Part shown: positions 3-62,680 of the stretch, in pieces
Layout: the number at the start of each line of letters is the position of its first letter
How positions within the stretch are numbered: position 1 is the stretch's first letter
Origin: Abditibacteriaceae bacterium
Lineage (GTDB): Bacteria; Armatimonadota; Abditibacteriia; Abditibacteriales; Abditibacteriaceae
NCBI GenBank assembly: GCA_965277285.1
Contig: OZ255721.1
Coordinates: 3,713,651 to 3,777,650, forward strand
Direction of reading: 5' to 3'
DNA: 64,000 nucleotides
Notes under the pieces: model-generated
The model's database searches: none
What the model was told of the DNA's origin: nothing
Seen by the model: only the letters and a program-made list of their open reading frames with translations
Translations under genes and position numbers: made by a program

Positions 3-1355
3 TTATCCGTTGTCGTTAGTCATTCGTCGTGCCAGGAAATCGGTGGCGATTTCGCCGCGCCGGAAATATTCGTTGGCCAAAATCTTTTCGTGAAACGACA
101 ATGTTGTCGGCACGCCCTGCATACGCGTTTCGCCCAGAGCGCGCTCCATTTTCGCAATCGCTTCGTCGCGCGTCGGCGCATACACCAAAATCTTCGCCAA
201 GAGCGAATCGTAATACGGCGGCACTTTGTAGCCGCTGCGCACATGAGAATCGACGCGCACGCCGAAACCGCCCGGCGGATCGAAATACTCAATCGTTCCG
301 CTCGACGGCGCGAAATTGCGCGTCGGGTCTTCCGCCGTCAAACGTACTTCAATGGCGTGACCTTTCAGCTCGACATCTTTTTGCGAAAATCCCAGCGTTT
401 CGCCTGCCGCGATGCGCAATTGTTCCTTGATCAAATCCAGCCCGCAAACCAGTTCTGTCACGGGATGTTCGACCTGAATGCGCGTGTTCATTTCCATGAA
501 AAAGAACTCGCCGGTTTTCGAGACCAGAAACTCAATCGTTCCCGCGTTTTGATAACCGACGGCTTTGGCGCCACGAACCGCAGCTTCGCCCAGCGCTTTT
601 CGAGTACTCGATGGAATGAAAATGCAGGGCGATTCTTCGAGCATTTTCTGGTGACGCGCGGTTTGCACGCTGCAATCGCGTTCGCCCAAATGCACGACGT
701 GACCGTGTTCGTCCGCCAAAATCTGCACTTCGATGTGGCGCGGCTCGATCAGATACTTTTCGAGATAAACCTCGCCGTTAGCAAATGCGGCTTCGGCTTC
801 GGCCTTGGCGGTGGCGATTTGCGAGGACATTTCGCCTTCTTCCTTGACCACGCGCATTCCCTTGCCGCCGCCGCCCGCGCTCGCCTTAATGATGACTGGA
901 TAACCGACTTTGCGCGCGAAATCGAGCGCCTCGCGTTCGTCTTTCAAGGCGCTGGTGCCAGGAATAATCGGTACGCGCGCTTCTTTCATTTTGTCGCGCG
1001 CACTGGCTTTGTTGCCCATCGCGTCAATCACAGCCGGACTTGGCCCGATGAATTTGATGCCGACGCGCTCGCAAATCTCGGCGAAACTGGAGTTTTCCGC
1101 CAGAAAACCGTAACCCGGATGAATCGCTTCGGCTCCGGTAATAGCAGCCGCCGACACGATGTTGGCGATGTTGAGATACGATTCTTTGGCCGGGCCAGGC
1201 CCAACGCAAACCGCTTGATCGGCGAGCTTGACATGAAGCGAATCGGCGTCCGCCTGCGAATAAACTGCGACAGTTTGGATGCCCATTTCGCGGCAAGTGC
1301 GAATGATGCGCACGGCGATTTCACCACGATTGGCAATAAGGATTTTAGAAAACAT
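3..1355 (-). CDS. accC: Acetyl-CoA carboxylase biotin carboxylase subunit
   Basis: Starts MFSKILIANRGEIAVRIIRTCREMGI and has the ATP-grasp motifs of biotin carboxylases. Full length, about 450 aa. The start is taken at the conserved N-terminus rather than the longest ORF. Confidence 0.95.
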   Translation of the reverse strand: MFSKILIANRGEIAVRIIRTCREMGIQTVAVYSQADADSLHVKLADQAVCVGPGPAKESYLNIANIVSAAAITGAEAIHPGYGFLAENSSFAEICERVGIKFIGPSPAVIDAMGNKASARDKMKEARVPIIPGTSALKDEREALDFARKVGYPVIIKASAGGGGKGMRVVKEEGEMSSQIATAKAEAEAAFANGEVYLEKYLIEPRHIEVQILADEHGHVVHLGERDCSVQTARHQKMLEESPCIFIPSSTRKALGEAAVRGAKAVGYQNAGTIEFLVSKTGEFFFMEMNTRIQVEHPVTELVCGLDLIKEQLRIAAGETLGFSQKDVELKGHAIEVRLTAEDPTRNFAPSSGTIEYFDPPGGFGVRVDSHVRSGYKVPPYYDSLLAKILVYAPTRDEAIAKMERALGETRMQGVPTTLSFHEKILANEYFRRGEIATDFLARRMTNDNG

Positions 1356-1384
1356 TCTGGGAATAAACGGGAAATTGAACTCTT

Positions 1385-1455
1385 GTAGGGACGCAGATTT
1401 CTGCGTCCGTTGTGTGCAAGTGTGAATCAACGGACGCAGAAATCTGCGTCCCTAC
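1385..1455. repeat. Long hairpin with 28-bp perfect stems; each arm is itself partly palindromic
   Basis: GTAGGGACGCAGATTTCTGCGTCCGTTG (1385-1412) pairs with CAACGGACGCAGAAATCTGCGTCCCTAC (1428-1455). It lies between the accC start and the stop of the upstream gene. Confidence 0.85.
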
Positions 1456-1478
1456 GGGCGCGTAAATATTTACGGCAA

Positions 1479-2036
1479 CTAATTGACACTTGATGGATCA
1501 GGCGGCGCGTTTCCAGTACTCGATCCGACGCCGGGCACGCGGCTCAAGTCAACGCCATCGACAGTTGTTCCCGCCGAGCCTGGCGCTCCTTTCAAACCGC
1601 CGGTCGGCGAAGACACGCGTCCGGTTTGCGGGTCGTAGTTCAGAGGTTGCCTGGAAACCGAATCGACCCACATTTCGGCGGGATAACCTTTGCCATAGGA
1701 ACTATTTTTCAGTTCGTCCAGCGAGGCGGGCGGTTTGCCATTGTTGTCGTTTTTATACATCTCGACGGCCTGCTGAATCTGCATGATGTTGGACGTGGTA
1801 TCGACATCTTCACCTTTGTTCATGCTTTGCTTGAGCACCGAAGGCTGCGTTTCTCCGTTCGGGCCGCTGCGTTTTCCCAGATACAACATATAGAGGCCAA
1901 TCAAAATCAGCACGACGACCAGCAAAGCGATCAACGTTTGTCCGCTGCGCCGTGTCGTGCGGTTCGCCGTCGTGCGACTTTGCACTACGCGACTTTGAAC
2001 TTTGCGGCTTTTCGAGTACTCGAATTGCGATTTCAT
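1479..2036 (-). CDS. Membrane-anchored pilin/pseudopilin-like protein (GspG-like), non-canonical N-terminus
   Basis: GGAGGA RBS upstream of the ATG at 2036. N-terminal SGQTLIALLVVVLILIGL resembles a degenerate prepilin G/FTLIE helix. IQQAVEMYKNDNNGKPPASLDEL and DSVSRQPLNYDP resemble the GspG core. Function is inferred. Confidence 0.45.
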   Translation of the reverse strand: MKSQFEYSKSRKVQSRVVQSRTTANRTTRRSGQTLIALLVVVLILIGLYMLYLGKRSGPNGETQPSVLKQSMNKGEDVDTTSNIMQIQQAVEMYKNDNNGKPPASLDELKNSSYGKGYPAEMWVDSVSRQPLNYDPQTGRVSSPTGGLKGAPGSAGTTVDGVDLSRVPGVGSSTGNAPPDPSSVN

Positions 2037-2051
2037 GCGAGTTCCTCCGTT

Positions 2052-2540: not shown

Positions 2541-2656
2541 GGCACGCGAGTATATCACTCCAAAACTGCGATGACTCTCCAAACTTTGTATCGAGTACTC
2601 GAAATTGCTTCCAATCCGCGTTTAATAGTCCCGTTGACGCGTTATACTGCGCCTTT

Positions 2657-4186
2657 ATGCAGCCGCCTTTTTCGACTGATTCGCCTTTTCCTTCGACACC
2701 TTCCAATGCGTCTTTGTCGGATGCGCCACAACCTTCCGGTGATGAAACTTCACGCCCATTTTTCGCAACGCAGGACGCGACGGATAGAATTGCGCCCACT
2801 GCGACGCCAAACGCTTCCAGCGCCAGCGGTTTTCAAAGTGCGAACGAACAAAATTTAGCGCCTCGTGCGACATTGCCCGCCGTGCAATTTGAGCCAATTC
2901 GCATCGCGCCACCGCTTAATGCCGCGTCTTTAACGGCGCCGCCCATTGGTGAAAAAACGGCGGTTCCAGCGACAACGGTCAGCGCGCCACCTTGTTATTC
3001 GCCGCGCGCAGCATCGCCCGCTACGCCAACTGTTGTTCCGCCGCGCTCAAACACGCTGGGATTTTTGCATACGTTGTTGTTGGGCGGCGTTCTGGCGTGC
3101 ACTCTGGTTGGTTTGGGAACTTTGATCGGCGCGCGTCATGGTGGCGCTGCAGAGACTTCGAGTACTGGAATTGAGGAAAATGGTGGCGTTGCGACGGCGG
3201 ATTTAGTGAACCAGAGCGCGATTGAAAGCGCGATTCAAAAAGTCGGGCCAGCCGTAATGAACGTGGACACGACTTTCGGCGGCAGCGGCAATAAAGAATT
3301 TTTGCCCGATCCCGGCACGTCCAGTCGCCCGATTCAAGGTAAAGGCACCGGCTTCGTCATTGATTCGGCCAAAGGCTTGATGCTGACCAACGCACACGTC
3401 GTCGCCGATGCGCAGAAAATTCAGGTCACAACGCGCGACGGACAAAAATACACAGGTCGCATCGTCGGCGTGGATCGCCAATCGGACATCGCGGTTGTCG
3501 CCTTGTCCGCCAAGGGCTTGCCCGAAGTGAAACTGGCGCCGATGAAAAATGCCAAAGACGTTCAAATTGGTCAATGGGCGATTGCCATTGGAAACCCTTT
3601 CGCGCAGGCGAATACAGTTACGGTCGGCGTGATTTCCGCCACAGGGCGCACCATTCCGGTGCCGGACGAGAAAAACGGCGGCACTTTTCAACTGACCGAT
3701 ATGCTGCAAACCGATGCGGCGATTAATCCAGGCAACAGCGGCGGCCCTTTGTGCAACATCAAGGGCGAAGTTGTCGGCATCAACACGGCGATTTACGGCA
3801 TCGGAACGGGTCTGGGTTTTTCGATTCCCATCAACAAAGCGTATGCCGTGGCGCAGGAAATCATCAAGCACGGCAGCGTGCAGCGCGCTTACGTCGGCTT
3901 GCAATTGCAGGCAATTACAGCCGCGACCAAGCAGGAATACGGTTTGAAAGATATGCAGGGCGCGCTGGTGCAAGATGCCGTGACCGATTCGCCCGCCGCC
4001 AAAGCCGGCTTCCAGGCGGGCGACATCATTCGCAAAATCAACGGCCAAAACATGACCAATACGGCGCAAGTCCAGGCGACGATTCAGCAGCAAAAAGTCG
4101 GCGCGACTGTCACAATCGAAATTTTACGCAACGGTACCACGCCTAAAACCCTGACCTTGAAAACCGCCGCGCAATCCGGCGCTTAA
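2657..4186 (+). CDS. HtrA/DegP-family serine protease with C-terminal PDZ domain
   Basis: Catalytic triad contexts LTNAHVV, DIAV and GNSGGPL. PDZ-like C-terminus. Pro/Ala/Ser-rich N-terminus followed by one TM helix. Start chosen at MQPPF, divergent from accB. Confidence 0.9.
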   Translation: MQPPFSTDSPFPSTPSNASLSDAPQPSGDETSRPFFATQDATDRIAPTATPNASSASGFQSANEQNLAPRATLPAVQFEPIRIAPPLNAASLTAPPIGEKTAVPATTVSAPPCYSPRAASPATPTVVPPRSNTLGFLHTLLLGGVLACTLVGLGTLIGARHGGAAETSSTGIEENGGVATADLVNQSAIESAIQKVGPAVMNVDTTFGGSGNKEFLPDPGTSSRPIQGKGTGFVIDSAKGLMLTNAHVVADAQKIQVTTRDGQKYTGRIVGVDRQSDIAVVALSAKGLPEVKLAPMKNAKDVQIGQWAIAIGNPFAQANTVTVGVISATGRTIPVPDEKNGGTFQLTDMLQTDAAINPGNSGGPLCNIKGEVVGINTAIYGIGTGLGFSIPINKAYAVAQEIIKHGSVQRAYVGLQLQAITAATKQEYGLKDMQGALVQDAVTDSPAAKAGFQAGDIIRKINGQNMTNTAQVQATIQQQKVGATVTIEILRNGTTPKTLTLKTAAQSGA

Positions 4187-4366: not shown

Positions 4367-4879
4367 ATGCCAGTCGCCGAGCGCATTTTAGGCGTCGATC
4401 CCGGATTGCACATCACCGGCTACGGCGTGATTGAACTCGTGATGCGCAATCGAGTACTCGAACCTCAACTCGTCGAAGGCGGAACCGTGCGCGCCCGCGA
4501 CAGCGATCCGTTTCCGCTGCGCTTGCAAACTTTGTTCGATGGCTTGAGCGAAGTGCTGCGCGAACATAATCCCGATGTTGTGGTCATCGAAGAACTCTTT
4601 TCGACGTATGCGCATCCGCGCAGCGCCTTGTTAATGGCGCACGCGCGCGGCGTTCTGATGCTGGCGGCGCAACTGCAAAATGTTCCGGTTCACGGTTTTA
4701 CGCCCAACGAAGTCAAGCAAGTCGTGACAGGAAACGGGCACGCCACCAAATCGAACGTTCAGGCGGCTGTCAAAACGCGTTTGAAATTGAACGCCGCGCC
4801 GCATCCGCCGGACGTAGCTGACGCTTTAGCAATTGCGTTGTGCTTCGCCGCGCGCCAAAACCTCGATTCCAAATTGTGA
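4367..4879 (+). CDS. ruvC: Crossover junction endodeoxyribonuclease RuvC
   Basis: ILGVDPGLHITGYGVIE, VVIEELF and a C-terminal DVADALAIALC motif. Start chosen just before the conserved N-terminus. Confidence 0.9.
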   Translation: MPVAERILGVDPGLHITGYGVIELVMRNRVLEPQLVEGGTVRARDSDPFPLRLQTLFDGLSEVLREHNPDVVVIEELFSTYAHPRSALLMAHARGVLMLAAQLQNVPVHGFTPNEVKQVVTGNGHATKSNVQAAVKTRLKLNAAPHPPDVADALAIALCFAARQNLDSKL

Positions 4880-4966
4880 AGTTCGAGTACTCGCTTCGCT
4901 TCGGGTTCGTTATGTGCGTTTTCTTGTGAATCTTTTCACGGAATCTGTTAAAGTTGCTGTAGTCTG

Positions 4967-5525: not shown

Positions 5526-6113
5526 ATGAAACGATTTTCTATCGTTCTTTCGGCGACGGCTTTTCTGGCTGTGGCGTCGGTTAGCAGTTTCGCGTCGCCA
5601 TTCCAAAATGTGCAGCATCGTCATTCGAGTACTCGATTGGCGTCAAAACCCCAGGCGCCACAACTGTGGGCGCACAATCAACCACTTGTCAATTCGACGA
5701 TTCTCATCGACAAATTCACGCTGGACAAAACCGGCTGGGTGATGTCGCATTTGCAAGGCAAAAACGGTCAGCCTGGAACGATGGCGGGCGTGACTGGCCC
5801 GTTTGCGCCCGGAACCTATCGCAACGTGCGCATCAAACTCAATGGCCTCATCAAAGCGGGCGATAAAGTGTGGCCGATGCTGCATTATGACAGCGGCTCC
5901 CAAAAAGGCGTTTTCGAGCCAACGCGGGATCATCACGTCGAAGTTAATGGCAAAGTCGTGACGCGTCAGATCACGATTACAGCGATCAAAGGCACGCCTC
6001 CCAAAGCGGGCGCGCTGATGACGATGCCGCCGCGCGACATGATGAGCGATATGCCAATGAGCGGCATGACGATGAACCATTCCAGGCCGAACAAAGCGGC
6101 TGCATCGCGCTGA
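5526..6113 (+). CDS. Secreted protein with Met-rich C-terminal tail
   Basis: Signal peptide MKRFSIVLSATAFLAVASVSSFA. C-terminus MTMPPRDMMSDMPMSGMTMNH resembles Met-rich Cu(I)-binding tails. Confidence 0.6.
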   Translation: MKRFSIVLSATAFLAVASVSSFASPFQNVQHRHSSTRLASKPQAPQLWAHNQPLVNSTILIDKFTLDKTGWVMSHLQGKNGQPGTMAGVTGPFAPGTYRNVRIKLNGLIKAGDKVWPMLHYDSGSQKGVFEPTRDHHVEVNGKVVTRQITITAIKGTPPKAGALMTMPPRDMMSDMPMSGMTMNHSRPNKAAASR

Positions 6114-6198
6114 ACCTTGAAAATAAGGCGAGACGCGCCGTTTCATCGCAATCGAGTACTCGATGTGATGAGGCGGCGCGTCTTGTGGAGGAATTCAA

Positions 6199-7352: not shown

Positions 7353-7865
7353 ATGCGCAAATTCTGGATGGTTTTGGCCGCGTGCGTCCTGCTTTCGAGT
7401 ACTCGAAAAGCTGTTTTGGCTTCCGCGAAAGTAGGAAACGCGGCGCCCTCACTTGTCGCGCGCGAATTGGACGGCAGCACGTTCGATTTGAGCGCGTTCA
7501 AAGGCAAAGTCGTGATTGTGAACTTTTGGGCGACGTGGTGTCCGCCATGTCGTGCGGAAATGCCCGCACTTTCGGCGTTTTATGCGAAATATCACGCGCA
7601 AGGTTTGGCAATGATCGCTCTGAGCGCCGACCGCAGGCAAGATCGCGGCGACGTGAAAAAAGTGATGCGTAACTTCACCTTTCCTGCTGCGATGCTGACT
7701 GAGGCCAAAACCAACAACTTCGGCGATCCCGACAGTTTGCCGACCACTTACGTCATTGATGCGGCGGGAAAAGTGCGCGCCGTTTTCAGCGGCAAAACAA
7801 CGGTGACAACGCAAAGTTTGAACGAAGTCGTTTTGCCTTTGCTACCGCAATCGTCAGTAAAGTAA
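7353..7865 (+). CDS. TlpA/ResA-family thiol:disulfide oxidoreductase (thioredoxin fold)
   Basis: WATWCPPCRAEMP active site, signal/anchor MRKFWMVLAACVLLSS, and a GGAGGA RBS before the ATG at 7353. Confidence 0.85.
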   Translation: MRKFWMVLAACVLLSSTRKAVLASAKVGNAAPSLVARELDGSTFDLSAFKGKVVIVNFWATWCPPCRAEMPALSAFYAKYHAQGLAMIALSADRRQDRGDVKKVMRNFTFPAAMLTEAKTNNFGDPDSLPTTYVIDAAGKVRAVFSGKTTVTTQSLNEVVLPLLPQSSVK

Positions 7866-7976
7866 AATTCGCCTTCAGCGGAGCCGCGCCAAAATCCCGA
7901 GTAAGGACTTTGGCGCGTCTGCTTTTCGAGTACTCGATGTCGGTAAACAACTTCCTAAAACGATAAACTTCAAAGC

Positions 7977-10731: not shown

Positions 10732-11685
10732 TTACTCAATTGGTTTGAGATTCGCTTCAATAGCGGCGCGTTGTGACTCAAGAAACGGCGGCAACGCGAC
10801 TTTTTCGCCCAATGTCGCGGCATCTTCATCGACGGCGAAACCTGGTCCGTCGGTGGCGATTTCAAACAAAATGTCGTTCGGTTCGCGGAAATACAAGCTG
10901 CGGAAATAATAACGATCCACTTCGCCGCTGCTGCGAATGCCCAGACTTTGCAAACGCTCGTTCCACGCGTGATATTGGTCGTCATTGGGCGTGCGAAAAG
11001 CGATGTGATGCACGCCGCCCGCGCCCAATCGCGCCAAAGGCAAACCTGGCTGAACAGCGACATGAAGTTCAGCGGACGCGCCAGCTTCGCCCATTTCGTA
11101 GACGTGAATCGTGTGACTGGCGTTGTCAGGATGCGCATATTCGCGCGCGTGCCGCATTTCGAGTACTCGAACCAGCACGGTATCGGTCGGCTTGAGGTCG
11201 GGAACGCTCATCACGACTGGGCCCAGACCGCGAATTTGATGTTCCGCAGGAACCGGACTTTTGTCCCACGTCTTGCCGCTTTCACTGACGCCGCCGTCGT
11301 CCATGAGCGACAATCGCTGGCCTTCGCGGTCTTCAAAATCAAGTGTTAAACGATTGTCGCGCTCCACAATGTCATGCGCCTGCACGCCTTGTTCCGCAAA
11401 ACGCTGCTTCCACCAATCAAGTGTTTCGCGCCCTCGAACGCGCAAACTGGTGCGCGTCAGGCTGTGCGCGCCGCGTTTTTCGCGTGGCATTGCCCAATCG
11501 AAAAACGTCAAATCGGTGCCAGGACTGCCCAGCGCATCGGCGTAGAAAAGGTGATACGCGCTTACATCGTCCTGATTGACGCTGCGCTTGACCAGGCGCA
11601 TTCCCAAGGTTTGCGTATAGAAGCGATAGTTTTCGCGCACGTCCGCCGTCACCGCAGTCACATGATGAATTCCCGTCAATTGCAT
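10732..11685 (-). CDS. Two-domain VOC-family ring-cleaving dioxygenase (MhqO-like)
   Basis: [40 protein letters not shown] is a typical N-terminus, and a second VOC repeat contains [16 protein letters not shown]. Confidence 0.85.
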
Positions 11686-14081: not shown

Positions 14082-14086
14082 AAAGA

Positions 14087-15569: not shown

Positions 15570-15644
15570 AGTGCGAACGTACGGGCGAGGCATGCCTCAC
15601 CCGTACAACAACACGGACAAATACCGCCAATCGAGTACTCGAAC

Positions 15645-20421: not shown

Positions 20422-20484
20422 TAGTTTTTATTCAAATCGAGTACTCGAATGCGCGCAGGCGAAAGTTGCAGTAAAATCGCGGCA

Positions 20485-21417: not shown

Positions 21418-21481
21418 CTTTCGAGTACTCGATTCTTCTATTTCTTCGCGTCCTTCGCGGTGAATCCAAAAGGAAACGAAA

Positions 21482-42310: not shown

Positions 42311-42400
42311 GAAGAACCGCCAAGACGCCAAGAGAAAGAGACGTTGAGTACTCGATCTAAAACTCTTTCTCTTGGCGTTCTTGGCGTCTTGGCGGTTCTT
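42311..42400. repeat. Imperfect long hairpin with a near-copy of the 12-mer in its loop
   Basis: GAAGAACCGCCAAGACGCCAAGAGAAAGAG ... CTCTTTCTCTTGGCGTTCTTGGCGTCTTGGCGGTTCTT. The loop contains TTGAGTACTCGA (42344). Confidence 0.8.
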
Positions 42401-46640: not shown

Positions 46641-46685
46641 TTTTATATCGAGTACTCGAAGCTGTAATGGTCTGTTATCAACCCA

Positions 46686-47678: not shown

Positions 47679-47771
47679 GAGAGAAAGGATGAAGGATGAG
47701 AGATGAAGGATGAAATCGAGTACTCGAACGCCGTTACTCGTCCCTCATTCCTTCCACCACGTGCCTTGCTA

Positions 47772-51553: not shown

Positions 51554-51645
51554 TGTTGCTCCAAGGGTAAAACCGCTGCATCGAGTACTCGAAATCAAGT
51601 TTCGTGGTGCCGCATGAATGCTTTCGTTTGTCGAAAGATGAATAA

Positions 51646-55197: not shown

Positions 55198-55295
55198 GTT
55201 TCACAAGCTCGCTATTTGAAATGGTTCGGGATTCCATGCATCCGAACTAACATAGTTTGTCTTTTTCCAAGCAAAGCCTCAAGTACTCGATTGGC

Positions 55296-57801: not shown

Positions 57802-57835
57802 CAGCGGCGCTATCGAGTACTCGATAGCGCCGCTG
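57802..57835. terminator. Perfect 34-bp palindrome centred on TCGAGTACTCGA between convergent genes
   Basis: CAGCGGCGCTATCGAGT|ACTCGATAGCGCCGCTG, verified base by base. It lies 25 nt after the fusA stop. Confidence 0.85.
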
Positions 57836-59019: not shown

Positions 59020-60534
59020 TTATGGCGTGGTTCGAGTACTCGATTGTGGCTTGGTTTTGGTAGTCTCTTTGTTGCGGATGTAGAGCCAGACATATTGGAG
59101 GCGCGTTTCCGAACGGAGCTTAAGGAGATGATAGCCACGAATGTGAGAGCGCGAAACAATGGCGGCGAAACGGCGTTGTTGCAGCGCGCGTTCCAGCAGC
59201 GCGTGCAGAGGCGAACGAGTGTCGTATTGCACGGGATCGTTGAAAAACGGCGTGCGATGGGCAGCGTAAATCAAGTCGACAAACAAGCCGAAACATGGGT
59301 CGCGTGGCGCGCTATTTTGCTCAATAGCCGCAACGATGCGTCGTAAATAAGGCAATGAAGCCCAGCGGAATTGTTCGCCCTGCCACATTCTCAGTGTCGG
59401 CAAGGTTGCGCAAAGCGTAAGAGTAGCAAGACAAAAACCATAACGCAGGCGCCAGACGCGTTTCGCTTCATCCGCCAGGCGCGGCCACGAAGCCGCCGCC
59501 ACAATCGACAAATATGCTGACGCTTCCAGCCAATAATTCAAATCGGCACCAGCGCGCGATACTGTGACGAACGCCACCAAAAATGCCGCCATTGCCGACC
59601 ATCGCAACGTTGCCAGGATGTTTTTTGCTCGTGTCGAACGCAATGGCACGCTCGCCGATGCGCGCCGCTCTTTGTACCAGGCGACGGCCACGAGCAACAC
59701 AGCGAGGATTGTCGCGGGTGAACCGCTCAGCAAAAGCGCGAGTTGCCCTTTTGCATTGTCGAAACTCTTAGGCGCGGTATTCGCCATTGTCCATTGTTGC
59801 CACCAAAAGCCGCCATCTGAAGTGAAGTTCAACGCCCAAACGATTCCCGCAAACAAACCGATGGTGCCCAGCAAAAAGAAGCGTAATTCGTGTTGCGCTT
59901 TGAACTGGTGACAAAGCCACAAGATCGTGAAGAAAGAGAGCAACGTCGTTAAACGCGTCAAAACGGCGCCAACTGTCAAAACAGCGCAAATCGTTATGCC
60001 GCATAAACGCCATTTTTGCGTCACGTGCGCGTCATCGAGTACTCGAACTGCGATACAAATGGCGCTCAGGCCAAACGCCAAAGCCAGAAAGTCGGGACGC
60101 TGAACTCCGACCCAGTAAAGAACAGGCAATTGTGACCAAAAGAAGGCGACAGATAAGAGCGCGAATCGTTTACGTCGCGTCAAAGCGTGCGTCAGCCAGG
60201 CGATGCAAACCGCGCAAATGAGTAAAGCGACAAGCGCAATAGCGCGCCCCGATTGAAATTGCAGCCCGAATATGCGCAGTCCCGCGCCGAACAGTAAATA
60301 ACTAATGGGGCCATAAGGCGACATCGTGTAAGGCGGGTTTTCAATTAGGTGAAAAGAATACGGGTTGGTGCCATGCGCTATCAAGAGCGATGGCGCCCAC
60401 ATTCCACCTTCGTAACATCCTGCATCAAAGGGAAAAAGCCAGCGCGAAATTCCCAAACTCAACGCCGAAAGCAGCGATAAAGCCGTGACCAGGCTCGTCA
60501 AACGCGCCGCTTTGGAAGAAGATCGAAATATCAC
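59020..60534 (-). CDS. Polytopic membrane protein (possible GT-C-type glycosyltransferase)
   Basis: At least 10 TM segments across 504 aa. The N-terminal layout resembles ArnT/PMT-like proteins. Weak functional call. Confidence 0.6.
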   Translation of the reverse strand: MIFRSSSKAARLTSLVTALSLLSALSLGISRWLFPFDAGCYEGGMWAPSLLIAHGTNPYSFHLIENPPYTMSPYGPISYLLFGAGLRIFGLQFQSGRAIALVALLICAVCIAWLTHALTRRKRFALLSVAFFWSQLPVLYWVGVQRPDFLALAFGLSAICIAVRVLDDAHVTQKWRLCGITICAVLTVGAVLTRLTTLLSFFTILWLCHQFKAQHELRFFLLGTIGLFAGIVWALNFTSDGGFWWQQWTMANTAPKSFDNAKGQLALLLSGSPATILAVLLVAVAWYKERRASASVPLRSTRAKNILATLRWSAMAAFLVAFVTVSRAGADLNYWLEASAYLSIVAAASWPRLADEAKRVWRLRYGFCLATLTLCATLPTLRMWQGEQFRWASLPYLRRIVAAIEQNSAPRDPCFGLFVDLIYAAHRTPFFNDPVQYDTRSPLHALLERALQQRRFAAIVSRSHIRGYHLLKLRSETRLQYVWLYIRNKETTKTKPQSSTRTTP

Positions 60535-60549
60535 GAGGAAAATTTGTAC

Positions 60550-61179
60550 TCAATCATCGCTGTTGGTGAGTGCTTGCAGCAAATTTACCATCGCCGCCAC
60601 TGCGCGTGCGCGATGCGAAACCTGCGCTTTAACTTCGGGTGGCACTTGCGCCATCGTGCGATTCAAGTACTCGATTGGTGCTTGTGTGGCTTCCGTAATC
60701 TCGAAAATTGGATCGTAGCCGAAACCGTTTTCGCCGCGCGGCTGGAGAGCGATGCGACCTTCGCAAGTCGCTTCAGTTTCGAGAACGCGACCATCAGGAA
60801 AAGCGACACAAATTGCGCAACGATAGCGCGCGGTGCGGTCTTCGCTTCGAGTACTCGATTGGTCGGTGCGAGCGAGCAGGGCGCGCGTTCGGTCTTCGTC
60901 GCTGCCTTCAATCCAGCGCGCACTGCGCACGCCAGGTTCGCCATTTAACACATCGACTTCGATTCCCGAATCGTCCGCCAACGCCGTCATTCCAGTTTGG
61001 AGCGCGCAACTTTCAGCTTTAATGCGTGCGTTTTCTCGCATCGTCAATCCGGTTTCTTCCGGCATTTCGACAGTGGGAAAATCACGCAACGACGTGATTT
61101 CGAGGTTGGGAACATCGCGCAGCATTGCGGAGATTTCTTCGATTTTGTGCGCGTTGCCGGTGGCGAGAAGAAGAATCAT
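60550..61179 (-). CDS. rdgB: dITP/XTP pyrophosphatase (RdgB/HAM1 family)
   Basis: ILLLATGNAHKIEE, GENGFGYDPIF. Confidence 0.9.
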   Translation of the reverse strand: MILLLATGNAHKIEEISAMLRDVPNLEITSLRDFPTVEMPEETGLTMRENARIKAESCALQTGMTALADDSGIEVDVLNGEPGVRSARWIEGSDEDRTRALLARTDQSSTRSEDRTARYRCAICVAFPDGRVLETEATCEGRIALQPRGENGFGYDPIFEITEATQAPIEYLNRTMAQVPPEVKAQVSHRARAVAAMVNLLQALTNSDD

Positions 61180-61283
61180 GGTTCGAGTACTCGATTGAAG
61201 GAATGGCCACAAAAAGCACGAAAGACACAAAAACCGCCAATAAACGTCTTCGCTAAACCTTTGTGCTTCTTTGTGGCTATTTC

Positions 61284-62585
61284 TTATGAAAAGCTCTTTA
61301 ATCGCGTGATGGCTTCATTCAGCGGCAAGGTTTCCTGAGCACTCGAACTCATGTCTTTGAGCGCGATTGTTCCCGCTGCAATTTCGTCATCGCCCAAAAG
61401 CAACGTAAAGCGCGCGTTCTGGCGATTGGCTTCGCGCATTTGCGCCCGCATGCTGCGCCCGACGAAATCGCAGTCGCACGAAATGCCCGACGCGCGCAAT
61501 TGATGCAAAATCTGCACACCCCGTTCGCGCGCCGCATCGCCCAACGCCACCAAAAAAGCGGTTGGCGGAACGGCTTGCGCTTCTTCGATTTGCGAGGCTT
61601 CGCGCACCAATAAAAGACGTTCGATGCCGCTGCCAAAGCCGATGCCAGGCGTTGCAGTTCCGCCCAATTCTTCGACTAAACCATCGTAGCGACCGCCACC
61701 CAAAACCGTGCTTTGCGCGCCCAGTTTGTCGGAGACGAATTCAAAAGCGGTGCGCGTGTAATAATCGAAGCCGCGCACCAAAGCATGATCGACTTCGTAG
61801 GCGATTCCCAACGCGTCCAAATGCGAACACAAGCGCGTGAAATGAGTACTCGATTCCTCGTCGTTTTCTCGAATGTGATCCAGCAATCGCGGCGCGTCCG
61901 CAATCCGTGCACGATCTCGTTCGTCTTTAGAATCGAAGATGCGCAAAGGGTTCAAATCCAAACGCTTCTGTGAATCTTCGCTGAGATTATTTCGCTGCGG
62001 CTCCAGATGTTCGCGCAGTTTCTGGATGTAAGCGGCGCGACTTTGCGGCGTTCCCAGTGTGTTCAAATGCAGAACCGTTTCGATTCCCAAAGCCTGCAAA
62101 AAGTCATTGGCAAGCGCCAGCACTTCGGCATCCGATTCGGGAGAAGCAGCGCCCAAAAGTTCGATTCCACATTGGTGATGCTGGCGATAACGACCGGCTT
62201 GTGGCGCTTCGTAACGGAAAATCGGCACGATGTAAAACAGCTTCGTGACTGGCCCGTTCTGGTTCAAGTGATGTTCGAGATAAGCGCGCACAACGGGCGC
62301 GGTTCCCTCGGCGCGTAAGGTGTAACTTTGCTCGTCGGGCGCGACGAACGAATACATTTGCTTGGTGACCAGAACATCGCTCGATTCTCCGGCTGTGCGC
62401 GCAAAGAGTTCGGTGTGTTCAAAAAGCGGCGTGCGGATTTCGCCGTAGCCGTAGCGCGCGCAAATGGCGCGAAAGGTTTCTTCGACCAGTCGCCAGCGCG
62501 AAATATCCTGTGGCAAAATGTCATGCGTGCCGCGCGGCGCCTGGAAACTGCGTTTCGTGGTTTTTTCAGTGTTATCAGGATTCAT
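61284..62585 (-). CDS. hisS: Histidine--tRNA ligase
   Basis: PRGTHDILP, FRYEAPQAGRYRQHHQ (motif 2), GGGRYDGL (motif 3), and an anticodon-binding C-terminus. Confidence 0.92.
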   Translation of the reverse strand: MNPDNTEKTTKRSFQAPRGTHDILPQDISRWRLVEETFRAICARYGYGEIRTPLFEHTELFARTAGESSDVLVTKQMYSFVAPDEQSYTLRAEGTAPVVRAYLEHHLNQNGPVTKLFYIVPIFRYEAPQAGRYRQHHQCGIELLGAASPESDAEVLALANDFLQALGIETVLHLNTLGTPQSRAAYIQKLREHLEPQRNNLSEDSQKRLDLNPLRIFDSKDERDRARIADAPRLLDHIRENDEESSTHFTRLCSHLDALGIAYEVDHALVRGFDYYTRTAFEFVSDKLGAQSTVLGGGRYDGLVEELGGTATPGIGFGSGIERLLLVREASQIEEAQAVPPTAFLVALGDAARERGVQILHQLRASGISCDCDFVGRSMRAQMREANRQNARFTLLLGDDEIAAGTIALKDMSSSAQETLPLNEAITRLKSFS

Positions 62586-62680
62586 AAGCGCGCGCAGTTT
62601 AGCAATTTTGCGACAACGGGCGCGGTATAAACGTGATTTCGAGTACTCGAATCCCACTTTCACGGGCGTGCTGACGAGAA

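What the first reader, a model, noticed from the sequence alone, without database searches (positions are those of the whole stretch)
600..62650. Hyper-abundant 12-bp perfect palindrome TCGAGTACTCGA, a HIP1-like or uptake-sequence-like genomic word
**What the sequence shows.** I count 52 exact copies of TCGAGTACTCGA and 22 copies with a single mismatch. In 6 of the 22 the 10-bp core CGAGTACTCG is intact and only an outer base differs.
- For a 12-mer in 64 kb the chance expectation is about 64000/4^12 = 0.004 exact copies, so the excess is more than 10^4-fold.
- Density is about one exact copy per 1.2 kb, similar to Neisseria DUS, Haemophilus USS or cyanobacterial HIP1.
- The flanking bases are almost always A or T (WTCGAGTACTCGAW) in a roughly 55% GC background.
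- About 29 exact copies lie inside confidently called CDS and about 23 lie in the small intergenic fraction.
- There are none in the 16S gene.
- The word contains a ScaI site (AGTACT) and two TaqI sites (TCGA).

**Interpretation (inference).** No repeat-associated gene such as a transposase accompanies the copies, so this is a short sequence word maintained genome-wide rather than a mobile element. Candidate roles are:
- a DNA uptake signal
- a target of a methyltransferase or restriction-like system
- a binding site for a nucleoid or repair protein
- a product of biased repair, as has been discussed for HIP1

I do not know of a described element with this sequence.
Basis: partly seen in the sequence, partly recalled or inferred. 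Interest (0 to 1): 0.88.

Follow-up and report, generated by a model that had tools for sequence, protein, structure and literature searches.

The report
Lineage-specific highly iterated 16-bp palindrome
An uncultured group of Abditibacteriaceae bacteria has written one perfect palindrome (core TCGAGTACTCGA) into its chromosome about once per kilobase, even re-coding conserved proteins to do so, which makes it a new and evolutionarily young counterpart of DNA uptake sequences and the cyanobacterial HIP1 word.

Summary
In detail: 52 exact and 22 one-mismatch copies in 64 kb, against 0 expected.

**What it is**
- The word is the core of a 14-16 bp palindrome, aW-TCGAGTACTCGA-Wt.
- The window comes from an uncultured Abditibacteriaceae lineage.
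- The word occurs at about 1 per kb in a related MAG and in about 93 metagenome contigs (531 copies in 531 kb).
- It is absent from the sister MAG, from Abditibacterium loci and from 75 other loci.

**How copies behave**
- Copies arise by point substitution, not insertion. Changes are synonymous at conserved R-V-L-D/E peptides (EF-G, XseA) and amino-acid-changing elsewhere.
- Copies diverge about 13 times less than their flanks.
- Spacing is far too regular: CV 0.58, with no pair closer than 336 bp.
- 31 of 43 intergenic spacers hold exactly one copy.
- A prophage and a restriction-modification/IS island lack the word.
- An AT/GC modulation of about 11 bp runs to about 60 bp either side of the dyad.

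**Interpretation**
- This is a maintained recognition site for a symmetric, lineage-specific DNA-binding protein. It is not a mobile element.
- Most likely (about 0.4) it is a self-DNA tag for natural transformation, like USS, DUS or HIP1.
- The main rival (about 0.3) is an array of sites for a DNA-wrapping protein such as gyrase.
- The protein that reads the word is unidentified.

The parts
600..611 (.). exact copy, in biotin carboxylase ORF (3-1430 -), read as S-S-T-R
2012..2023 (.). exact copy, codon 4 of ORF 1479-2036 (-); probably 5' untranslated
2591..2602 (.). exact copy, codon 21 of HtrA-like protease ORF (2528-4186 +), S-S-T-R
4450..4461 (.). exact copy in ruvC (4277-4879 +), R-V-L-E
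5625..5636 (.). exact copy in DUF7282 ORF (5526-6113 +), S-S-T-R
6152..6163 (.). exact copy, intergenic (tandem genes)
7395..7406 (.). exact copy in redoxin ORF (7281-7865 +), S-S-T-R
7926..7937 (.). exact copy, intergenic
8779..8790 (.). exact copy in GIY-YIG/UVR ORF (7977-9398 +), I-E-Y-S-K; exact also in relative L297
10695..10706 (.). exact copy, convergent intergenic spacer (serpin / glyoxalase-family)
11159..11170 (.). exact copy in glyoxalase-family ORF (10732-11772 -), R-V-L-E
12326..12337 (.). exact copy in SAM methyltransferase ORF (11782-12504 -), R-V-L-D
13414..13425 (.). exact copy in dihydrolipoamide-dehydrogenase-like ORF (12663-14135 -), R-V-L-E
14506..14517 (.). exact copy in CrtC-like ORF (14433-15593 -), R-V-L-D
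15631..15642 (.). exact copy, intergenic, 2 bp after a stop codon
17164..17175 (.). exact copy, intergenic
19916..19927 (.). exact copy at codon 7 of MacB/FtsX ORF (17276-19948 -), preceded by a half copy TTCGAGTA at 19902-19909
20437..20448 (.). exact copy, intergenic, abuts ATG of ORF 20449-21297
21421..21432 (.). exact copy, intergenic; kept (1 mismatch) in L250 although flanks are 38% identical
21819..21830 (.). exact copy, convergent intergenic spacer; exact in L250
23192..23203 (.). exact copy in D-Ala-D-Ala carboxypeptidase ORF (22398-23840 +), R-V-L-E
23984..23995 (.). exact copy in pseudouridine synthase ORF (23818-25500 +), F-E-Y-S-N
25622..25633 (.). exact copy, intergenic
26415..26426 (.). 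exact copy in ORF 25647-27377 (+), S-S-T-R
27265..27276 (.). exact copy in ORF 25647-27377 (+), I-E-Y-S-N
27745..27756 (.). exact copy, in 741-bp stretch without a called gene
29262..29273 (.). exact copy in RNase_H_2-family ORF (28995-30185 +), S-S-T-R
30352..30363 (.). exact copy in radical-SAM/DUF3641 ORF (30158-31141 +), R-V-L-E
31292..31303 (.). exact copy, intergenic
32635..32646 (.). exact copy in rmlD (32209-33087 +), S-S-T-R
33452..33463 (.). exact copy at the apex of a 20-pair hairpin
33436..33479 (.). 44-nt perfect hairpin with A-run/T-run on either side (bidirectional terminator-like), convergent spacer
34737..34748 (.). exact copy, divergent spacer, 44 bp upstream of promoter-like site before 16S
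36996..37007 (.). exact copy at the apex of an 18-pair hairpin, 166 bp after the 16S gene
36982..37021 (.). 40-nt hairpin built round the word
37924..37935 (.). exact copy, convergent intergenic spacer
39522..39533 (.). exact copy, divergent intergenic spacer
40918..40929 (.). exact copy, intergenic, 11 bp after stop of FHA-domain ORF
42019..42030 (.). exact copy in hydrolase ORF (41044-42309 +), S-S-T-R
42455..42466 (.). exact copy in recN (42401-44224 -), S-S-T-R in non-conserved C-terminus
43179..43190 (.). exact copy in recN, D-R-V-L-E where relatives have E-R-V-I-A / E-E-I-L-A (no indel)
43657..43668 (.). exact copy in recN, I-E-Y-S-N where relatives have E-K-Y-L-K / E-A-F-R-I (no indel)
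45094..45105 (.). exact copy in ORF 44194-45387 (-), S-S-T-R
46648..46659 (.). exact copy, intergenic
47716..47727 (.). exact copy, intergenic
51581..51592 (.). exact copy at codon 2 of the dxs ORF, upstream of the conserved part; exact copy also in L001
52566..52577 (.). exact copy in polyprenyl synthetase ORF (51728-52669 -), R-V-L-E; exact at the same codons in L001, absent in L002/L004/L005
55965..55976 (.). exact copy in fusA (EF-G), encodes the universally conserved R-V-L-D of [10 protein letters not shown] with minor codons CGA GTA CTC
57813..57824 (.). exact copy, convergent spacer, hairpin apex; in L237 the stem differs by compensatory changes
59032..59043 (.). exact copy in ORF 59020-60534 (-), S-S-T-R
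60035..60046 (.). exact copy in ORF 59020-60534 (-), R-V-L-D
60847..60858 (.). exact copy in Ham1/RdgB ORF (60550-61230 -), S-S-T-R
61183..61194 (.). exact copy at codon 12 of ORF 60550-61230 (-)
62639..62650 (.). exact copy at codon 4 of hisS ORF (61284-62663 -)
1512..1523 (.). 1-mismatch copy TCCAGTACTCGA
3158..3169 (.). 1-mismatch copy TCGAGTACTGGA
4883..4894 (.). 1-mismatch copy TCGAGTACTCGC (outer base)
9072..9083 (.). 1-mismatch copy TCGAGTACGCGA; exact in relative L297
12047..12058 (.). 1-mismatch copy TTGAGTACTCGA (CpG transition)
15171..15182 (.). 1-mismatch copy TCGCGTACTCGA
16526..16537 (.). 1-mismatch copy TCGAGTACTCGT (outer base)
17783..17794 (.). 1-mismatch copy TCGAGTCCTCGA
19149..19160 (.). 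1-mismatch copy ACGAGTACTCGA (outer base); same variant in L250
20911..20922 (.). 1-mismatch copy TCGAGTACTCAA (CpG transition); same variant in L250
28290..28301 (.). 1-mismatch copy TCGAGTACTCAA (CpG transition)
28969..28980 (.). 1-mismatch copy TCGCGTACTCGA, intergenic
29600..29611 (.). 1-mismatch copy TCAAGTACTCGA (CpG transition)
32223..32234 (.). 1-mismatch copy TCGAGTACTCGT (outer base)
38527..38538 (.). 1-mismatch copy TTGAGTACTCGA at the apex of a 17-pair hairpin (38514-38551)
42344..42355 (.). 1-mismatch copy TTGAGTACTCGA, convergent spacer
48995..49006 (.). 1-mismatch copy TCGAGTACTCGT in TPR ORF, N-E-Y-S-S
50600..50611 (.). 1-mismatch copy TTGAGTACTCGA in dxs; L001 has a different 1-mismatch variant at the same codons
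53174..53185 (.). 1-mismatch copy TCGAGTACTCGT in xseA at conserved R-V-L-E; exact in L001; relatives use CGG GTG TTA GAG / CGC GTT TTG GAA
54314..54325 (.). 1-mismatch copy TTGAGTACTCGA, intergenic
55279..55290 (.). 1-mismatch copy TCAAGTACTCGA, divergent spacer
60663..60674 (.). 1-mismatch copy TCAAGTACTCGA

Best explanation
The 12-mer is the core of a 14-16 bp perfect palindrome, aW-TCGAGTACTCGA-Wt. One genus-level lineage of uncultured Abditibacteriaceae carries it about once per kilobase across its chromosome.

**Shown**
- Copies are not inserted. They are written into existing sequence by point substitutions.
  - Where the protein already reads R-V-L-D/E, the change is synonymous and uses minor codons.
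  - Elsewhere the change alters amino acids.
- Existing copies are then held almost invariant.
- Placement is least-cost and spaced: one copy in most intergenic spacers, extra copies inside long genes, and never two close together.

**Inferred**
- The word is the recognition site of a lineage-specific, two-fold symmetric (dimeric) DNA-binding protein.
- The action of that protein favours any roughly 1-kb DNA segment that carries a copy.
- The most likely action is recognition of self DNA during natural transformation, at the uptake step, the recombination step, or both.
- Copies would then spread by biased uptake and recombination (molecular drive) plus selection, as for Haemophilus USS, Neisseria DUS and, on recent evidence, cyanobacterial HIP1.
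- The helically phased AT tracts on both sides would help the DNA fold at the word.
- The reader protein, competence of the organism, and any methylation of the word have not been shown.
For: **Genome-wide and lineage-specific**
- 52 copies in the 64-kb window and 12 in 12 kb of the related MAG L001.
- 531 copies in 531 kb across 102 metagenome stretches found with a two-copy probe. About 93 of these are of the same GC content and density class.
- No match with up to 2 mismatches in the sister MAG L002. Chance-level matches in L005. No exact copy in L002-L080.

**Directional pressure on every position**
- After removing duplicate contexts, copies with 0, 1, 2 and 3 mismatches number 542, 140, 68 and 184. 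Chance expects 0.03, 1.2, 20 and 197.
- Nested sub-words are not enriched outside the word: TCGA O/E 0.98, AGTACT O/E 1.14.

**Origin by substitution**
- Codon alignments of recN, xseA, the polyprenyl synthetase gene and dxs show no indel at the copies.
- The EF-G copy encodes the universally conserved R-V-L-D.
- 12 of 15 R-V-L-[DE] peptides in the window are encoded CGA-GTA-CTC, although these codons make up 11%, 6% and 14% of their families.
- The peptides SSTR, RVL[DE] and [IF]EYS occur 17, 15 and 7 times. My rough estimate from amino-acid composition is about 0.4, 1 and 0.2 (for the counts).

**Maintenance**
- 14 of 15 non-ascertained sites are identical between relatives that are 88-98% identical (P = 5e-5).
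- Divergence is 0.6% in the word against 7.1% in its flanks (Fisher P = 8e-5).
- About 14 of 19 sites are shared at about 78-89% identity, even where intergenic flanks are only 38-60% identical.

**Spacing**
- CV is 0.58 against 1.03 under random placement, and the minimum spacing is 336 bp.
- P = 2.5e-4 even under a null that allows at most one copy per spacer.
- 31 of 43 spacers hold exactly one copy and none holds two.

**Missing from recently acquired DNA**
- A 6.9-kb prophage stretch with a terminase gene lacks the word.
- A 3.6-kb Type I restriction-modification plus IS200-like island lacks it.

**Agreement with published USS, DUS and HIP1 properties**
- About 1 per kb; under-represented in new DNA, rRNA and constrained coding sequence; highly conserved in permissive places; used in terminators; spacing matches recombination tracts; AT tracts aid uptake (PMC7811141, PMC2397512, PMC2817400).
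- HIP1 is conserved by selection (PMC5861425).
- HIP1 raises transformation up to 100-fold when methylated (bioRxiv 10.1101/2024.09.10.611283).
Against: - No competence or type IV pilus gene, and no reader protein, has been seen.
  - tblastn with E. coli ComEC, DprA, HofQ, HofB, HofC, PpdD, HofM and YggR found nothing in about 0.6 Mb of lineage DNA.
  - That sample is at most about 10-15% of a genome (my estimate), so the negative result is nearly uninformative.
- Every established uptake sequence is asymmetric and is read by a monomeric pilin-type receptor. A perfect 16-bp palindrome points instead to a dimeric reader of the transcription-factor, nucleoid-protein or nuclease type.
- The phased AT/GC signal runs about 60 bp on both sides. 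That is far beyond the 30-bp USS and looks more like DNA wrapped on a protein.
- Nothing is known about transformation in Abditibacteriota.
Confidence: 0.4

Rival explanations
1. Array of sites for a DNA-wrapping chromosomal machine. The word would be the dyad of a roughly 120-130 bp protein-DNA complex. This could be a hard-wired strong site for DNA gyrase or another type IIA topoisomerase, cutting TCGA^GTAC^TCGA with a 4-bp stagger. It could instead be a site for a lineage-specific nucleoid protein. One such site per spacer, or per kilobase, would manage transcription-induced supercoiling or fold the nucleoid.
For: **Phased flanks**
- An AT/GC modulation with a period of 10.75-11.25 bp is phase-locked to the word. 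It is present at both coding and intergenic copies and is strongest from 18 to 61 bp from the dyad.
- Its power is 0.0068. The maximum in 400 size-matched controls with similar flanks is 0.0051, and their 99th percentile is 0.0036.
- The profile is reproducible between independent halves of the data (r = 0.81) and at 1-mismatch copies (r = 0.80).

**Resemblance to the E. coli gyrase motif**
- That motif is symmetric, 130 bp long, and has flanks with a 10.75-bp period from 17 to 63/66 bp (PMC6379681).
- AT maxima here lie at about 16, 27.5, 37.5, 48 and 61 bp from the dyad. In the published consensus they lie at 19, 29.5, 38.5, 49.5 and 61.5 bp.
- The central GTAC gives +1G/+4C.

**Distribution**
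- Density falls from convergent to tandem to divergent spacers: 4.2, 2.9 and 1.8 copies per kb (P = 0.004). Gyrase sites are also enriched downstream of genes.
- E. coli REP/BIME-2 repeats are gyrase sites (PMC6379681).
- HIP1 periodicity has been read as a nucleoid-structure signal (PMC5861425).
- A perfect palindrome suits a two-fold symmetric enzyme.
Against: - The core violates the two preferences reported as constant across bacterial gyrases and topo IV. These are -4G/+8C and -2A/+6T; here the bases are T/A and G/C (PMC12324340).
- Known gyrase recognition is degenerate and works by indirect readout. There is no precedent for an invariant 12-14 bp word.
- Gyrase is universal, yet the sister species lacks the word, so a lineage-specific adaptor would still be needed.
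- Phase agreement with the E. coli motif is only approximate. The best shift is -2 bp and r is 0.26 at zero shift. Roughly 45% of random phases would do as well.
- The genome has a weak general 11-bp periodicity of its own.
- A per-site benefit large enough to change amino acids in conserved proteins is hard to see for one of several thousand redundant sites.
Confidence: 0.3
2. By-product of methylation-linked biased repair, following the Elhai model for HIP1. A methyltransferase would modify a sub-site of the word. A very-short-patch type repair system would keep converting near-matches into the word, and the word itself would have no function.
For: - One-mismatch variants concentrate at the outer positions, as reported for HIP1 (PMC4390886). 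Counts by half-site position 1 to 6 are 73, 33, 20, 5, 3 and 6.
- 42 of the 67 variants in core positions 2-6 are transitions at the CpG: C-to-T 31 times and G-to-A 11 times.
- A Vsr mismatch endonuclease gene exists in the lineage at L216 3274-3654 (PF03852, E = 6e-29).
- The word contains TCGA twice, plus GTAC and AGTACT.
Against: - T:G repair can push only one position per half-site. It cannot raise a 12-14 bp word more than 10,000-fold from random sequence.
- There is no nested series of enriched sub-words outside the word.
- Repair does not predict the over-regular spacing or the one-copy-per-spacer rule.
- It does not predict the phased flanks.
- The Vsr gene sits next to a low-GC HNH/AspBHI-N-like nuclease gene, so it looks like part of a defence island.
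- No m5C methyltransferase was found with an E. coli Dcm query in about 0.6 Mb.
Confidence: 0.06
3. Function at the RNA or transcription level. The word would serve as the apex of intrinsic terminators or of mRNA-stabilising hairpins, or as an RNA processing signal.
For: - The only three long hairpins in 30-50 kb (20, 18 and 17 pairs) all have the word at their apex. All other terminator-like hits are at chance level, 30 found against 33 expected.
- Stem sequences co-vary between species at 57813.
- Convergent spacers are the most densely occupied.
Against: - Only about 3% of 543 copies have 6 bp or more of perfect extra stem.
- About half of all copies lie inside genes, in all three frames, and were created by substitution.
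- Divergent, promoter-only spacers are also occupied.
- The bare 12-mer would give only a 4-bp stem with a GUAC loop.
Confidence: 0.05
4. Miniature mobile element, such as a REP/REPIN spread by a RAYT transposase or a MITE, or alternatively an assembly or adaptor artefact.
For: - It is an abundant palindromic repeat enriched in spacers: 3.0 copies per kb intergenic against 0.56 per kb genic.
- One weak IS200-like Y1 transposase gene is present in the lineage at L218 3406-3924 (E = 3e-6).
Against: - There are no indels at coding copies relative to orthologues.
- The unit is only 12-16 bp, with no conserved sequence beyond position +/-2.
- The window contains no transposase.
- The IS200-like gene lies in the one island that lacks the word.
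- The word is present in independent assemblies at orthologous sites and inside conserved codons.
Confidence: 0.02

Closest known systems
DNA uptake sequences: Haemophilus/Pasteurellaceae USS and Neisseriaceae DUS
   Same: - A core of about 10-12 bp at about 1 per kb.
- Present in genes in all frames as well as in spacers.
- Arises by point change and reshapes peptide content.
- Highly conserved, yet placed in permissive positions.
- Rare in newly acquired DNA and in rRNA.
- Used in terminator hairpins.
- AT-rich, helically phased flanks (USS).
- Lineage-specific 'dialects'.
- Sources: PMC7811141, PMC2397512, PMC2817400.
   Different: - This word is a perfect palindrome, whereas USS and DUS are asymmetric.
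- A single copy, not an inverted pair, forms the hairpin apex.
- No close pairs occur. In H. influenzae 23% of USS lie within 100 bp of another (PMC7811141).
- Phased flanks are present on both sides, out to about 60 bp.
- The phylum is Abditibacteriota, where competence is unknown.
- No receptor or competence genes have been seen.
HIP1 (GCGATCGC) and alternate highly iterated palindromes of cyanobacteria
   Same: - A hyper-abundant perfect palindrome, found both in and between genes.
- Conserved beyond neutral expectation (PMC5861425).
- One-base deviations concentrate at the outermost positions (PMC4390886).
- Contains potential methyltransferase sub-sites.
- Its function is debated between nucleoid structure and transformation (bioRxiv 10.1101/2024.09.10.611283; 10.64898/2026.06.24.733823).
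   Different: - 12-16 bp rather than 8 bp, with an unrelated sequence.
- Enrichment of more than 10,000-fold, against 15-300-fold for HIP1.
- Restricted to a genus-level clade rather than a phylum.
- No enrichment of nested sub-words.
- Cognate methyltransferases have not been identified.
- Strong short-range regularity of spacing.
Gyrase binding motif, strong gyrase sites (Mu SGS) and REP/BIME-2 gyrase sites of E. coli
   Same: - Two-fold symmetry about a 4-bp centre beginning with G and ending with C.
- Flanks with a GC/AT period of about 10.75-11 bp, spanning about 120-130 bp, roughly in phase with the E. coli motif.
- Enrichment in spacers, especially downstream of genes.
   Different: - The gyrase motif is degenerate, whereas this word is invariant.
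- -4G/+8C and -2A/+6T are not met.
- REP elements are strictly intergenic and are inserted.
SlmA-binding site (SBS) GTGAGTACTCAC of E. coli, and other 12-16 bp palindromic chromosome-organising sites (Noc NBS, parS, matS)
   Same: - A 12-bp palindrome with the identical central 8-mer GAGTACTC (PMC3020112).
- Read by a dimeric helix-turn-helix protein and scattered over the chromosome.
   Different: - The outer two bases on each side differ.
- SBS, NBS, parS and matS number tens per genome and are regionally restricted (my own knowledge). This word would number thousands at 1 per kb.
- No SlmA-like gene was looked for or found.

Membership tests
DNA uptake sequence (USS/DUS) | Short word hyper-abundant genome-wide, about 1 per kb | tested here: met
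   52 copies in 64 kb, and 531 in 531 kb of lineage contigs.
DNA uptake sequence (USS/DUS) | Competent cells preferentially take up DNA carrying the word | not testable with these tools
   Needs uptake or transformation assays on a culture or enrichment.
DNA uptake sequence (USS/DUS) | Competence machinery (ComEC, ComEA, DprA, type IV pilus/secretin) with a sequence-specific receptor in the genome | tested here: inconclusive
   tblastn with the E. coli homologues found none in about 0.6 Mb, roughly 10-15% of a genome at most (my estimate).
DNA uptake sequence (USS/DUS) | Copies arise by point change, are conserved, and are rare in recently acquired DNA | tested here: met
   The prophage and the restriction-modification island are free of the word.
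DNA uptake sequence (USS/DUS) | Asymmetric motif, often in inverted pairs | tested here: not met
   Perfect palindrome. No two copies are closer than 336 bp (111 bp when 1-mismatch copies are included).
HIP1-type highly iterated palindrome | Perfect palindrome, hyper-abundant in genes and in spacers | tested here: met
HIP1-type highly iterated palindrome | Sequence GCGATCGC (or a GC-rich 8-mer alternate) in cyanobacteria | tested here: not met
   The word is TCGAGTACTCGA and the organism is Abditibacteriaceae.
HIP1-type highly iterated palindrome | Conservation beyond neutral expectation | tested here: met
   0.6% divergence in the word against 7.1% in flanks; 14 of 15 sites identical.
HIP1-type highly iterated palindrome | One-base deviations biased to the outermost positions | tested here: met
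   73 of 140 deviations fall at half-site position 1.
HIP1-type highly iterated palindrome | Cognate orphan methyltransferases that modify sub-sites of the word | tested here: inconclusive
   Only a Type I-like N6 methyltransferase, in a word-free island, and a Vsr gene were found. E. coli Dcm and Dam queries gave no hit in the sample.
REP/REPIN/MITE mobile palindromes | Confined to intergenic DNA and spread by insertion | tested here: not met
   About half of the copies are in ORFs, and no indels are seen relative to orthologues.
REP/REPIN/MITE mobile palindromes | Associated RAYT or transposase flanked by the repeat | tested here: not met
   None in the window. The one IS200-like gene (L218) lies in a 3.6-kb stretch free of the word.
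Gyrase (type IIA topoisomerase) site | Symmetric motif with GC/AT flanks of 10-11 bp period spanning about 120-130 bp | tested here: met
   Period 10.75-11.25 bp, extending to about 61 bp from the dyad, and exceeding all 400 controls.
Gyrase (type IIA topoisomerase) site | Core preferences -4G/+8C, -2A/+6T and +1G/+4C | tested here: not met
   Only +1G/+4C fits. Position -4 is T and -2 is G (against the sequence).
Gyrase (type IIA topoisomerase) site | Cleavage or binding by gyrase | not testable with these tools
   Needs Topo-seq or in vitro cleavage.
SlmA-binding site | Consensus GTGAGTACTCAC bound by a TetR-family SlmA protein; tens of sites per genome | tested here: not met
   Only the central 8 of 12 bases match, and density is 1 per kb.

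The most novel reading that the evidence does not exclude
The word is not an uptake tag. It is the dyad of a roughly 120-bp wrapped nucleoprotein complex repeated several thousand times. In that reading, supercoil management or nucleoid folding is hard-wired by one invariant palindrome. The palindrome would be a strong site for gyrase (possibly with a lineage-specific adaptor) or for a new nucleoid protein. It would be placed once per spacer or per kilobase, and it would have evolved recently enough that a sister species lacks it.
Probability: 0.25. Interest if true: 0.9.

Novelty: new variant of a known kind. Interest (0 to 1): 0.72.

Why it matters
- **Few such words are known.** To my knowledge only three kinds of genome-wide words that also invade coding sequence are well known: USS, DUS and HIP1. 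All are old and are fixed across whole families or a phylum, so their origin cannot be watched.
- **This one is young.**
  - It is present in species that share about 80-90% nucleotide identity.
  - It is absent from a sister MAG whose Dxs protein is 82% identical.
  - A simple comparison of gene presence and absence between the two could therefore name the reader protein.
- **It is unusual in form.**
  - It is the longest and most strongly enriched palindromic example I know of.
  - It lies in a phylum that, to my knowledge, has one cultured species.
- **Its features are directly testable.** It combines features linked to uptake sequences (density, conservation, recoding of proteins, absence from a prophage) with a gyrase-like phased flank. 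This makes the long-standing question of whether such words serve transformation or chromosome structure testable in one system.
- **Practical uses.** The word is a near-perfect binning and host-assignment marker for this lineage in metagenomes. It is also a candidate sequence for making the lineage genetically tractable.

Tried and rejected
1. **Source genome.** Exact-protein look-ups of two window proteins found no record. The source genome is unidentified beyond family level.
3. **Viral contigs, two-copy probe.** It gave 0 hits. No phage with host-like density is in IMG/VR, although phages of this lineage are probably barely sampled.
5. **Unconverted R-V-L-[DE] codons.**
   - I tested whether they lie nearer to another copy: 8 of 9 within 300 bp, against 12% for converted ones.
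   - I rejected this as evidence. A random genomic position is within 300 bp of a copy about 65% of the time (my estimate). The loci were also ascertained on 452-482 bp pairs, and three of the nine are the same orthologous site.
6. **Methyltransferase motif screen.** A regular-expression screen of 1629 ORFs gave five candidates. Only one is a DNA methyltransferase, and it is in a word-free island.
7. **Vsr lead.** The gene is real but sits beside a low-GC HNH nuclease gene, so its link to the word is weak.
8. **Phase match to the E. coli gyrase consensus.** It is only approximate: best shift -2 bp, r = 0.26 at zero shift.
9. **Flawed control.** One flank-matched control (SSSSNAAT) was contaminated by its own fixed positions. 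It was redone with a clean range.
10. **Sister loci.** They were searched for a replacement word and none was found. The repeated 12-mers in L005 are three copies of one terminator hairpin, and those in L002 are a local tandem repeat.
11. **Off-target hits of the two-copy probe.**
    - About nine stretches hit by the probe are unrelated.
    - L204, L251 and L265 are high-GC tandem repeats in which the word encodes E-Y-S; L222 is another high-GC contig.
    - L220, L239 and L275 are low-GC duplicated segments.

Full report
**1.

The window has 52 exact copies of TCGAGTACTCGA, from 600-611 to 62639-62650. One hundred dinucleotide-preserving shuffles gave none. There are 22 one-mismatch and 9 two-mismatch copies. 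In six of the one-mismatch copies only an outer base differs. The base before the word is A or T in 52/52 copies, and the base after it in 50/52. The 16S gene at 35306-36830 has no copy, but only about one would be expected there.

I called genes from ORFs with a codon-usage score, and Pfam supported most of them. On these copies lie in ORFs and 20 in spacers. Six of the 32 lie within the first 21 codons of ORFs taken from the most upstream start codon, so a split near 26/26 is likely. All of the roughly 55 ORFs are ordinary housekeeping genes. Examples are accC, htrA, ruvC, lpd, recN, dxs, xseA, xseB, fusA and hisS. None is a transposase.

**2. Whose genome, and how widespread**

- The closest relatives of the window's Dxs protein are Abditibacteriaceae MAGs: 90% (L001), 82% (L002) and about 70% (Abditibacterium spp., L003-L005).
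- The word occurs 12 times in the 12 kb of L001. It does not occur at all in L002-L080. L002 has no match even with two mismatches, and L005 has one at chance level.
- I searched the metagenome collection with a probe that demands two copies 440-470 bp apart. It found 102 stretches.
  - About 93 have 50-60% GC and roughly one copy per kb.
  - In total there are 531 copies in 531 kb.
  - The rest are unrelated, for example high-GC tandem protein repeats in which the word encodes E-Y-S.
- Overlaps with the window are 80-91% identical. The carriers are therefore several species of one clade.
- I found no paper that mentions the word as a genomic repeat.

**3. Anatomy of the word**

- *Consensus.* Pooling 543 distinct copies, the consensus is a 16-bp palindrome, aA-TCGAGTACTCGA-Tt. 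Position -1 is A in 65% of half-sites, T in 31% and G or C in 4%. Position -2 is A or T in 66%.
- *Mismatch classes.* Copies with 0, 1, 2 and 3 mismatches number 542, 140, 68 and 184. Chance expects 0.03, 1.2, 20 and 197.
- *One-mismatch variants.* They fall mostly at the outermost base (73 of 140). Next come the CpG positions, with C-to-T 31 times and G-to-A 11 times. The central AGTACT almost never varies.
- *Sub-words.* Outside the word its sub-words are not enriched: TCGA O/E 0.98, AGTACT O/E 1.14, GTAC O/E 0.54. The lineage strongly avoids many other 6-bp palindromes.
- *Flank constraint.* CTCGAG is rare in the sister loci, 0 observed against 25 expected. This may explain why C is excluded at position -1.

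**4. Where copies sit**

- *Reading frames.* Coding copies use all three frames: S-S-T-R 15 times, R-V-L-E/D 11 times and (I/F)-E-Y-S 6 times.
- *Density.* It is 3.0 per kb in spacers and 0.56 per kb in genes.
- *Spacer occupancy.* Of 43 spacers, 31 hold exactly one copy with at most one mismatch, and none holds two. All six convergent spacers are occupied.
- *Spacer type.* In the pooled contigs density falls from convergent (4.2 per kb) to tandem (2.9) to divergent (1.8) spacers, P = 0.004.
- *Spacing.*
  - It is much too regular: CV 0.58 against 1.03 for random placement within the gene and spacer classes.
  - No two copies are closer than 336 bp, where about 14 closer pairs would be expected.
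  - P = 2.5e-4 even if at most one copy per spacer is imposed.
- *Hairpins.* A minority of copies, about 3%, form the apex of long perfect hairpins. The only three convincing terminator-like hairpins between 30 and 50 kb are of this kind.

**5. How copies arise and persist**

I made codon alignments with relatives that lack the word. They show substitution without indels.
- In xseA the conserved R-V-L-E is CGG GTG TTA GAG or CGC GTT TTG GAA in relatives. It is CGA GTA CTC GAA here and in L001.
- In recN, E-K-Y-L-K became I-E-Y-S-N and E-R-V-I-A became D-R-V-L-E.
- The EF-G copy encodes the universally conserved R-V-L-D of [10 protein letters not shown].

The effect on coding is large.
- Twelve of the 15 R-V-L-[DE] peptides in the window use CGA-GTA-CTC. 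These codons make up only 11%, 6% and 14% of their families.
- The peptides SSTR, RVL[DE] and [IF]EYS occur 17, 15 and 7 times. My rough estimate from amino-acid composition is about 0.4, 1 and 0.2 (for the counts).
- The word has therefore changed both codon choice and protein sequence.

Once made, copies are kept.
- Between relatives that are 88-98% identical, 14 of 15 sites outside the ascertained pairs are identical (P = 5e-5).
- The word diverges 0.6% against 7.1% for its flanks (P = 8e-5).
- At about 78-89% identity, about 14 of 19 sites are still shared. These include spacer copies whose flanks are only 38-60% identical. There are also a few lineage-specific gains.

**6. Where it is missing**

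There are only two long stretches free of the word in about 0.55 Mb.
- One is a 6.9-kb run of small co-directional genes that includes a terminase large subunit, so it is a prophage.
- The other is a 3.6-kb island with a Type I-like methyltransferase, a specificity subunit and an IS200-like gene.

**7.

AT content is modulated with a period of about 11 bp, phase-locked to the word on both sides.
- AT peaks lie about 6.5, 16, 27.5, 37.5, 48 and 61 bp from the dyad, with GC peaks between them. The signal fades beyond about 61 bp.
- It is present at coding copies, where it is stronger, and at spacer copies.
- It exceeds all 400 size-matched control sets with similar immediate flanks.
- It reproduces between independent halves of the data (r = 0.81) and at one-mismatch copies (r = 0.80).
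- The genome has a weak general 11-bp periodicity, about eight times weaker in power.
- Inference: the DNA around each copy is bent or wrapped symmetrically over about 120 bp.

**8. What it most likely is**

Shown:
- The word is not mobile and is not an artefact.
- All 12-14 positions are under directional pressure.
- Copies are made by substitution and then maintained.
- Placement is least-cost and self-avoiding.
- Recently acquired DNA lacks the word.
- The trait is confined to one young clade.

Inferred:
- These properties call for a lineage-specific protein that reads the double-stranded word symmetrically.
- They also call for a process that rewards each roughly 1-kb segment for having one copy.

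*Best explanation.* The best-precedented process of that kind is natural transformation with a self-DNA tag.
- USS and DUS show the same density, conservation in permissive places, recoding of proteins, absence from new DNA, use in terminators and a link between spacing and recombination tracts (PMC7811141, PMC2397512, PMC2817400).
- HIP1 is now reported to raise transformation strongly when methylated (bioRxiv 10.1101/2024.09.10.611283; see also 10.64898/2026.06.24.733823).
- Symmetric phased bending would suit folding of the DNA at the word as a loop is pulled through a secretin pore, the uptake model described in PMC7811141.
- I give this explanation 0.4.

*Main rival (0.3).* The word could mark an array of sites for a DNA-wrapping chromosomal protein.
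- The flank signal matches the published E. coli gyrase motif in symmetry, period (10.75 bp) and extent (to 63-66 bp). It matches roughly in phase.
- The central GTAC fits cleavage before G.
- However, the core violates the -4G/+8C and -2A/+6T preferences reported as constant among bacterial type IIA enzymes.
- Gyrase recognition is otherwise degenerate.
- A universal enzyme does not explain why the sister species lacks the word.

*Weaker rivals.*
- Pure biased repair (0.06) cannot push more than one position per half-site and predicts neither the spacing nor the phased flanks. A Vsr gene does exist in the lineage, but it lies beside a low-GC HNH nuclease gene. The excess of CpG transitions among variants may still mean that the CpG is methylated.
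- A purely RNA-level or terminator role (0.05) fits only about 3% of copies.
- A mobile element or an artefact (0.02) fails the insertion test.

**9. Relation to known systems**

- The word works most like a USS or DUS, and it looks most like a HIP. It is a member of neither family by sequence, taxon or, for USS and DUS, symmetry.
- It shares the central 8-mer GAGTACTC with the SlmA-binding site GTGAGTACTCAC (PMC3020112). I treat this as a coincidence that merely shows dimeric helix-turn-helix proteins can read such a core.
- Competence genes were not found in the 0.6 Mb sampled. That sample is too small to count against the uptake reading.

**10. Verdict**

This is a real, strongly non-random and apparently undescribed highly iterated palindrome. 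It is a new variant of the USS/DUS/HIP class, in a barely studied phylum, and young enough for comparative genomics to identify its reader. The mechanism is inferred, not shown.

Noticed in passing
window 35306-36830 (and 34792-34820, 35025-35053): A complete 16S rRNA gene stands alone. There is no 23S, 5S or tRNA gene anywhere in the 64 kb, so the rRNA genes are unlinked. Two strong promoter-like sites lie upstream: TTGACG-17-TATAAT and TTGACA-17-TAGAAT.
   Followed up: partly
window and lineage loci L001, L201-L302 (pooled, word masked): Many 6-bp palindromes are strongly avoided: CGGCCG O/E 0.05, CACGTG 0.05, TTCGAA 0.06, TCGCGA 0.07, TCCGGA 0.10, CGATCG 0.12 and GTGCAC 0.13. CTAG has O/E 0.09. 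This suggests heavy exposure to restriction-modification systems in a genome that at the same time over-uses one long palindrome.
   Followed up: partly
L216 3274-3654 and 3918-4647: A Vsr very-short-patch mismatch endonuclease gene (PF03852, E = 6e-29) sits just after nuoG, nuoH and nuoI. It is followed by a low-GC (0.42) ORF with an HNH domain and a weak N-terminal match to AspBHI, which may be a modification-dependent nuclease. No cytosine methyltransferase lies next to it.
   Followed up: partly
L218 1-3924: An island with a Type I-like N6 methyltransferase, a specificity subunit and a weak IS200-like Y1 transposase. It is free of the word for 3.6 kb.
   Followed up: partly
L252 6320-13196: A 6.9-kb stretch free of the word, made of small co-directional overlapping genes that include a terminase large subunit (phrog_2, E = 5e-44). 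It is a prophage or phage fragment in a host-like contig. In the adjoining 1-6.3 kb, three of the four copies sit directly before ATG start codons.
   Followed up: partly
L005 3714, 4446, 5994: The Abditibacterium sp. chromosome has three copies of one bidirectional terminator hairpin within 2.3 kb: AAAAAAGCACGCGA-loop-TCGCGTGCTTTTTT. This is a different, local repeat and not a genome-wide word.
   Followed up: no
window 19902-19927: TTCGAGTA-gtgaaa-TCGAGTACTCGA is a half copy followed 6 bp later by a full copy. The relative L250 has the full copy at the position of the half copy. This is the only sign of an indel or slippage event at a copy.
   Followed up: no
window 7977-9398: A 473-aa ORF with weak GIY-YIG nuclease and UvrB/UvrC-motif matches (E about 1e-4) and no other domain. 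It carries one exact and one 1-mismatch copy.
   Followed up: no
L204, L251, L265 (metagenome): Unrelated high-GC contigs hit by the two-copy probe. They carry tandem protein repeats in which (F/L)-E-Y-S-(T/I/K) is encoded by the same 12-mer, followed by D-G in L204 and L251. Each copy is followed by similar sequence, and the flanks are not A or T.
   Followed up: partly
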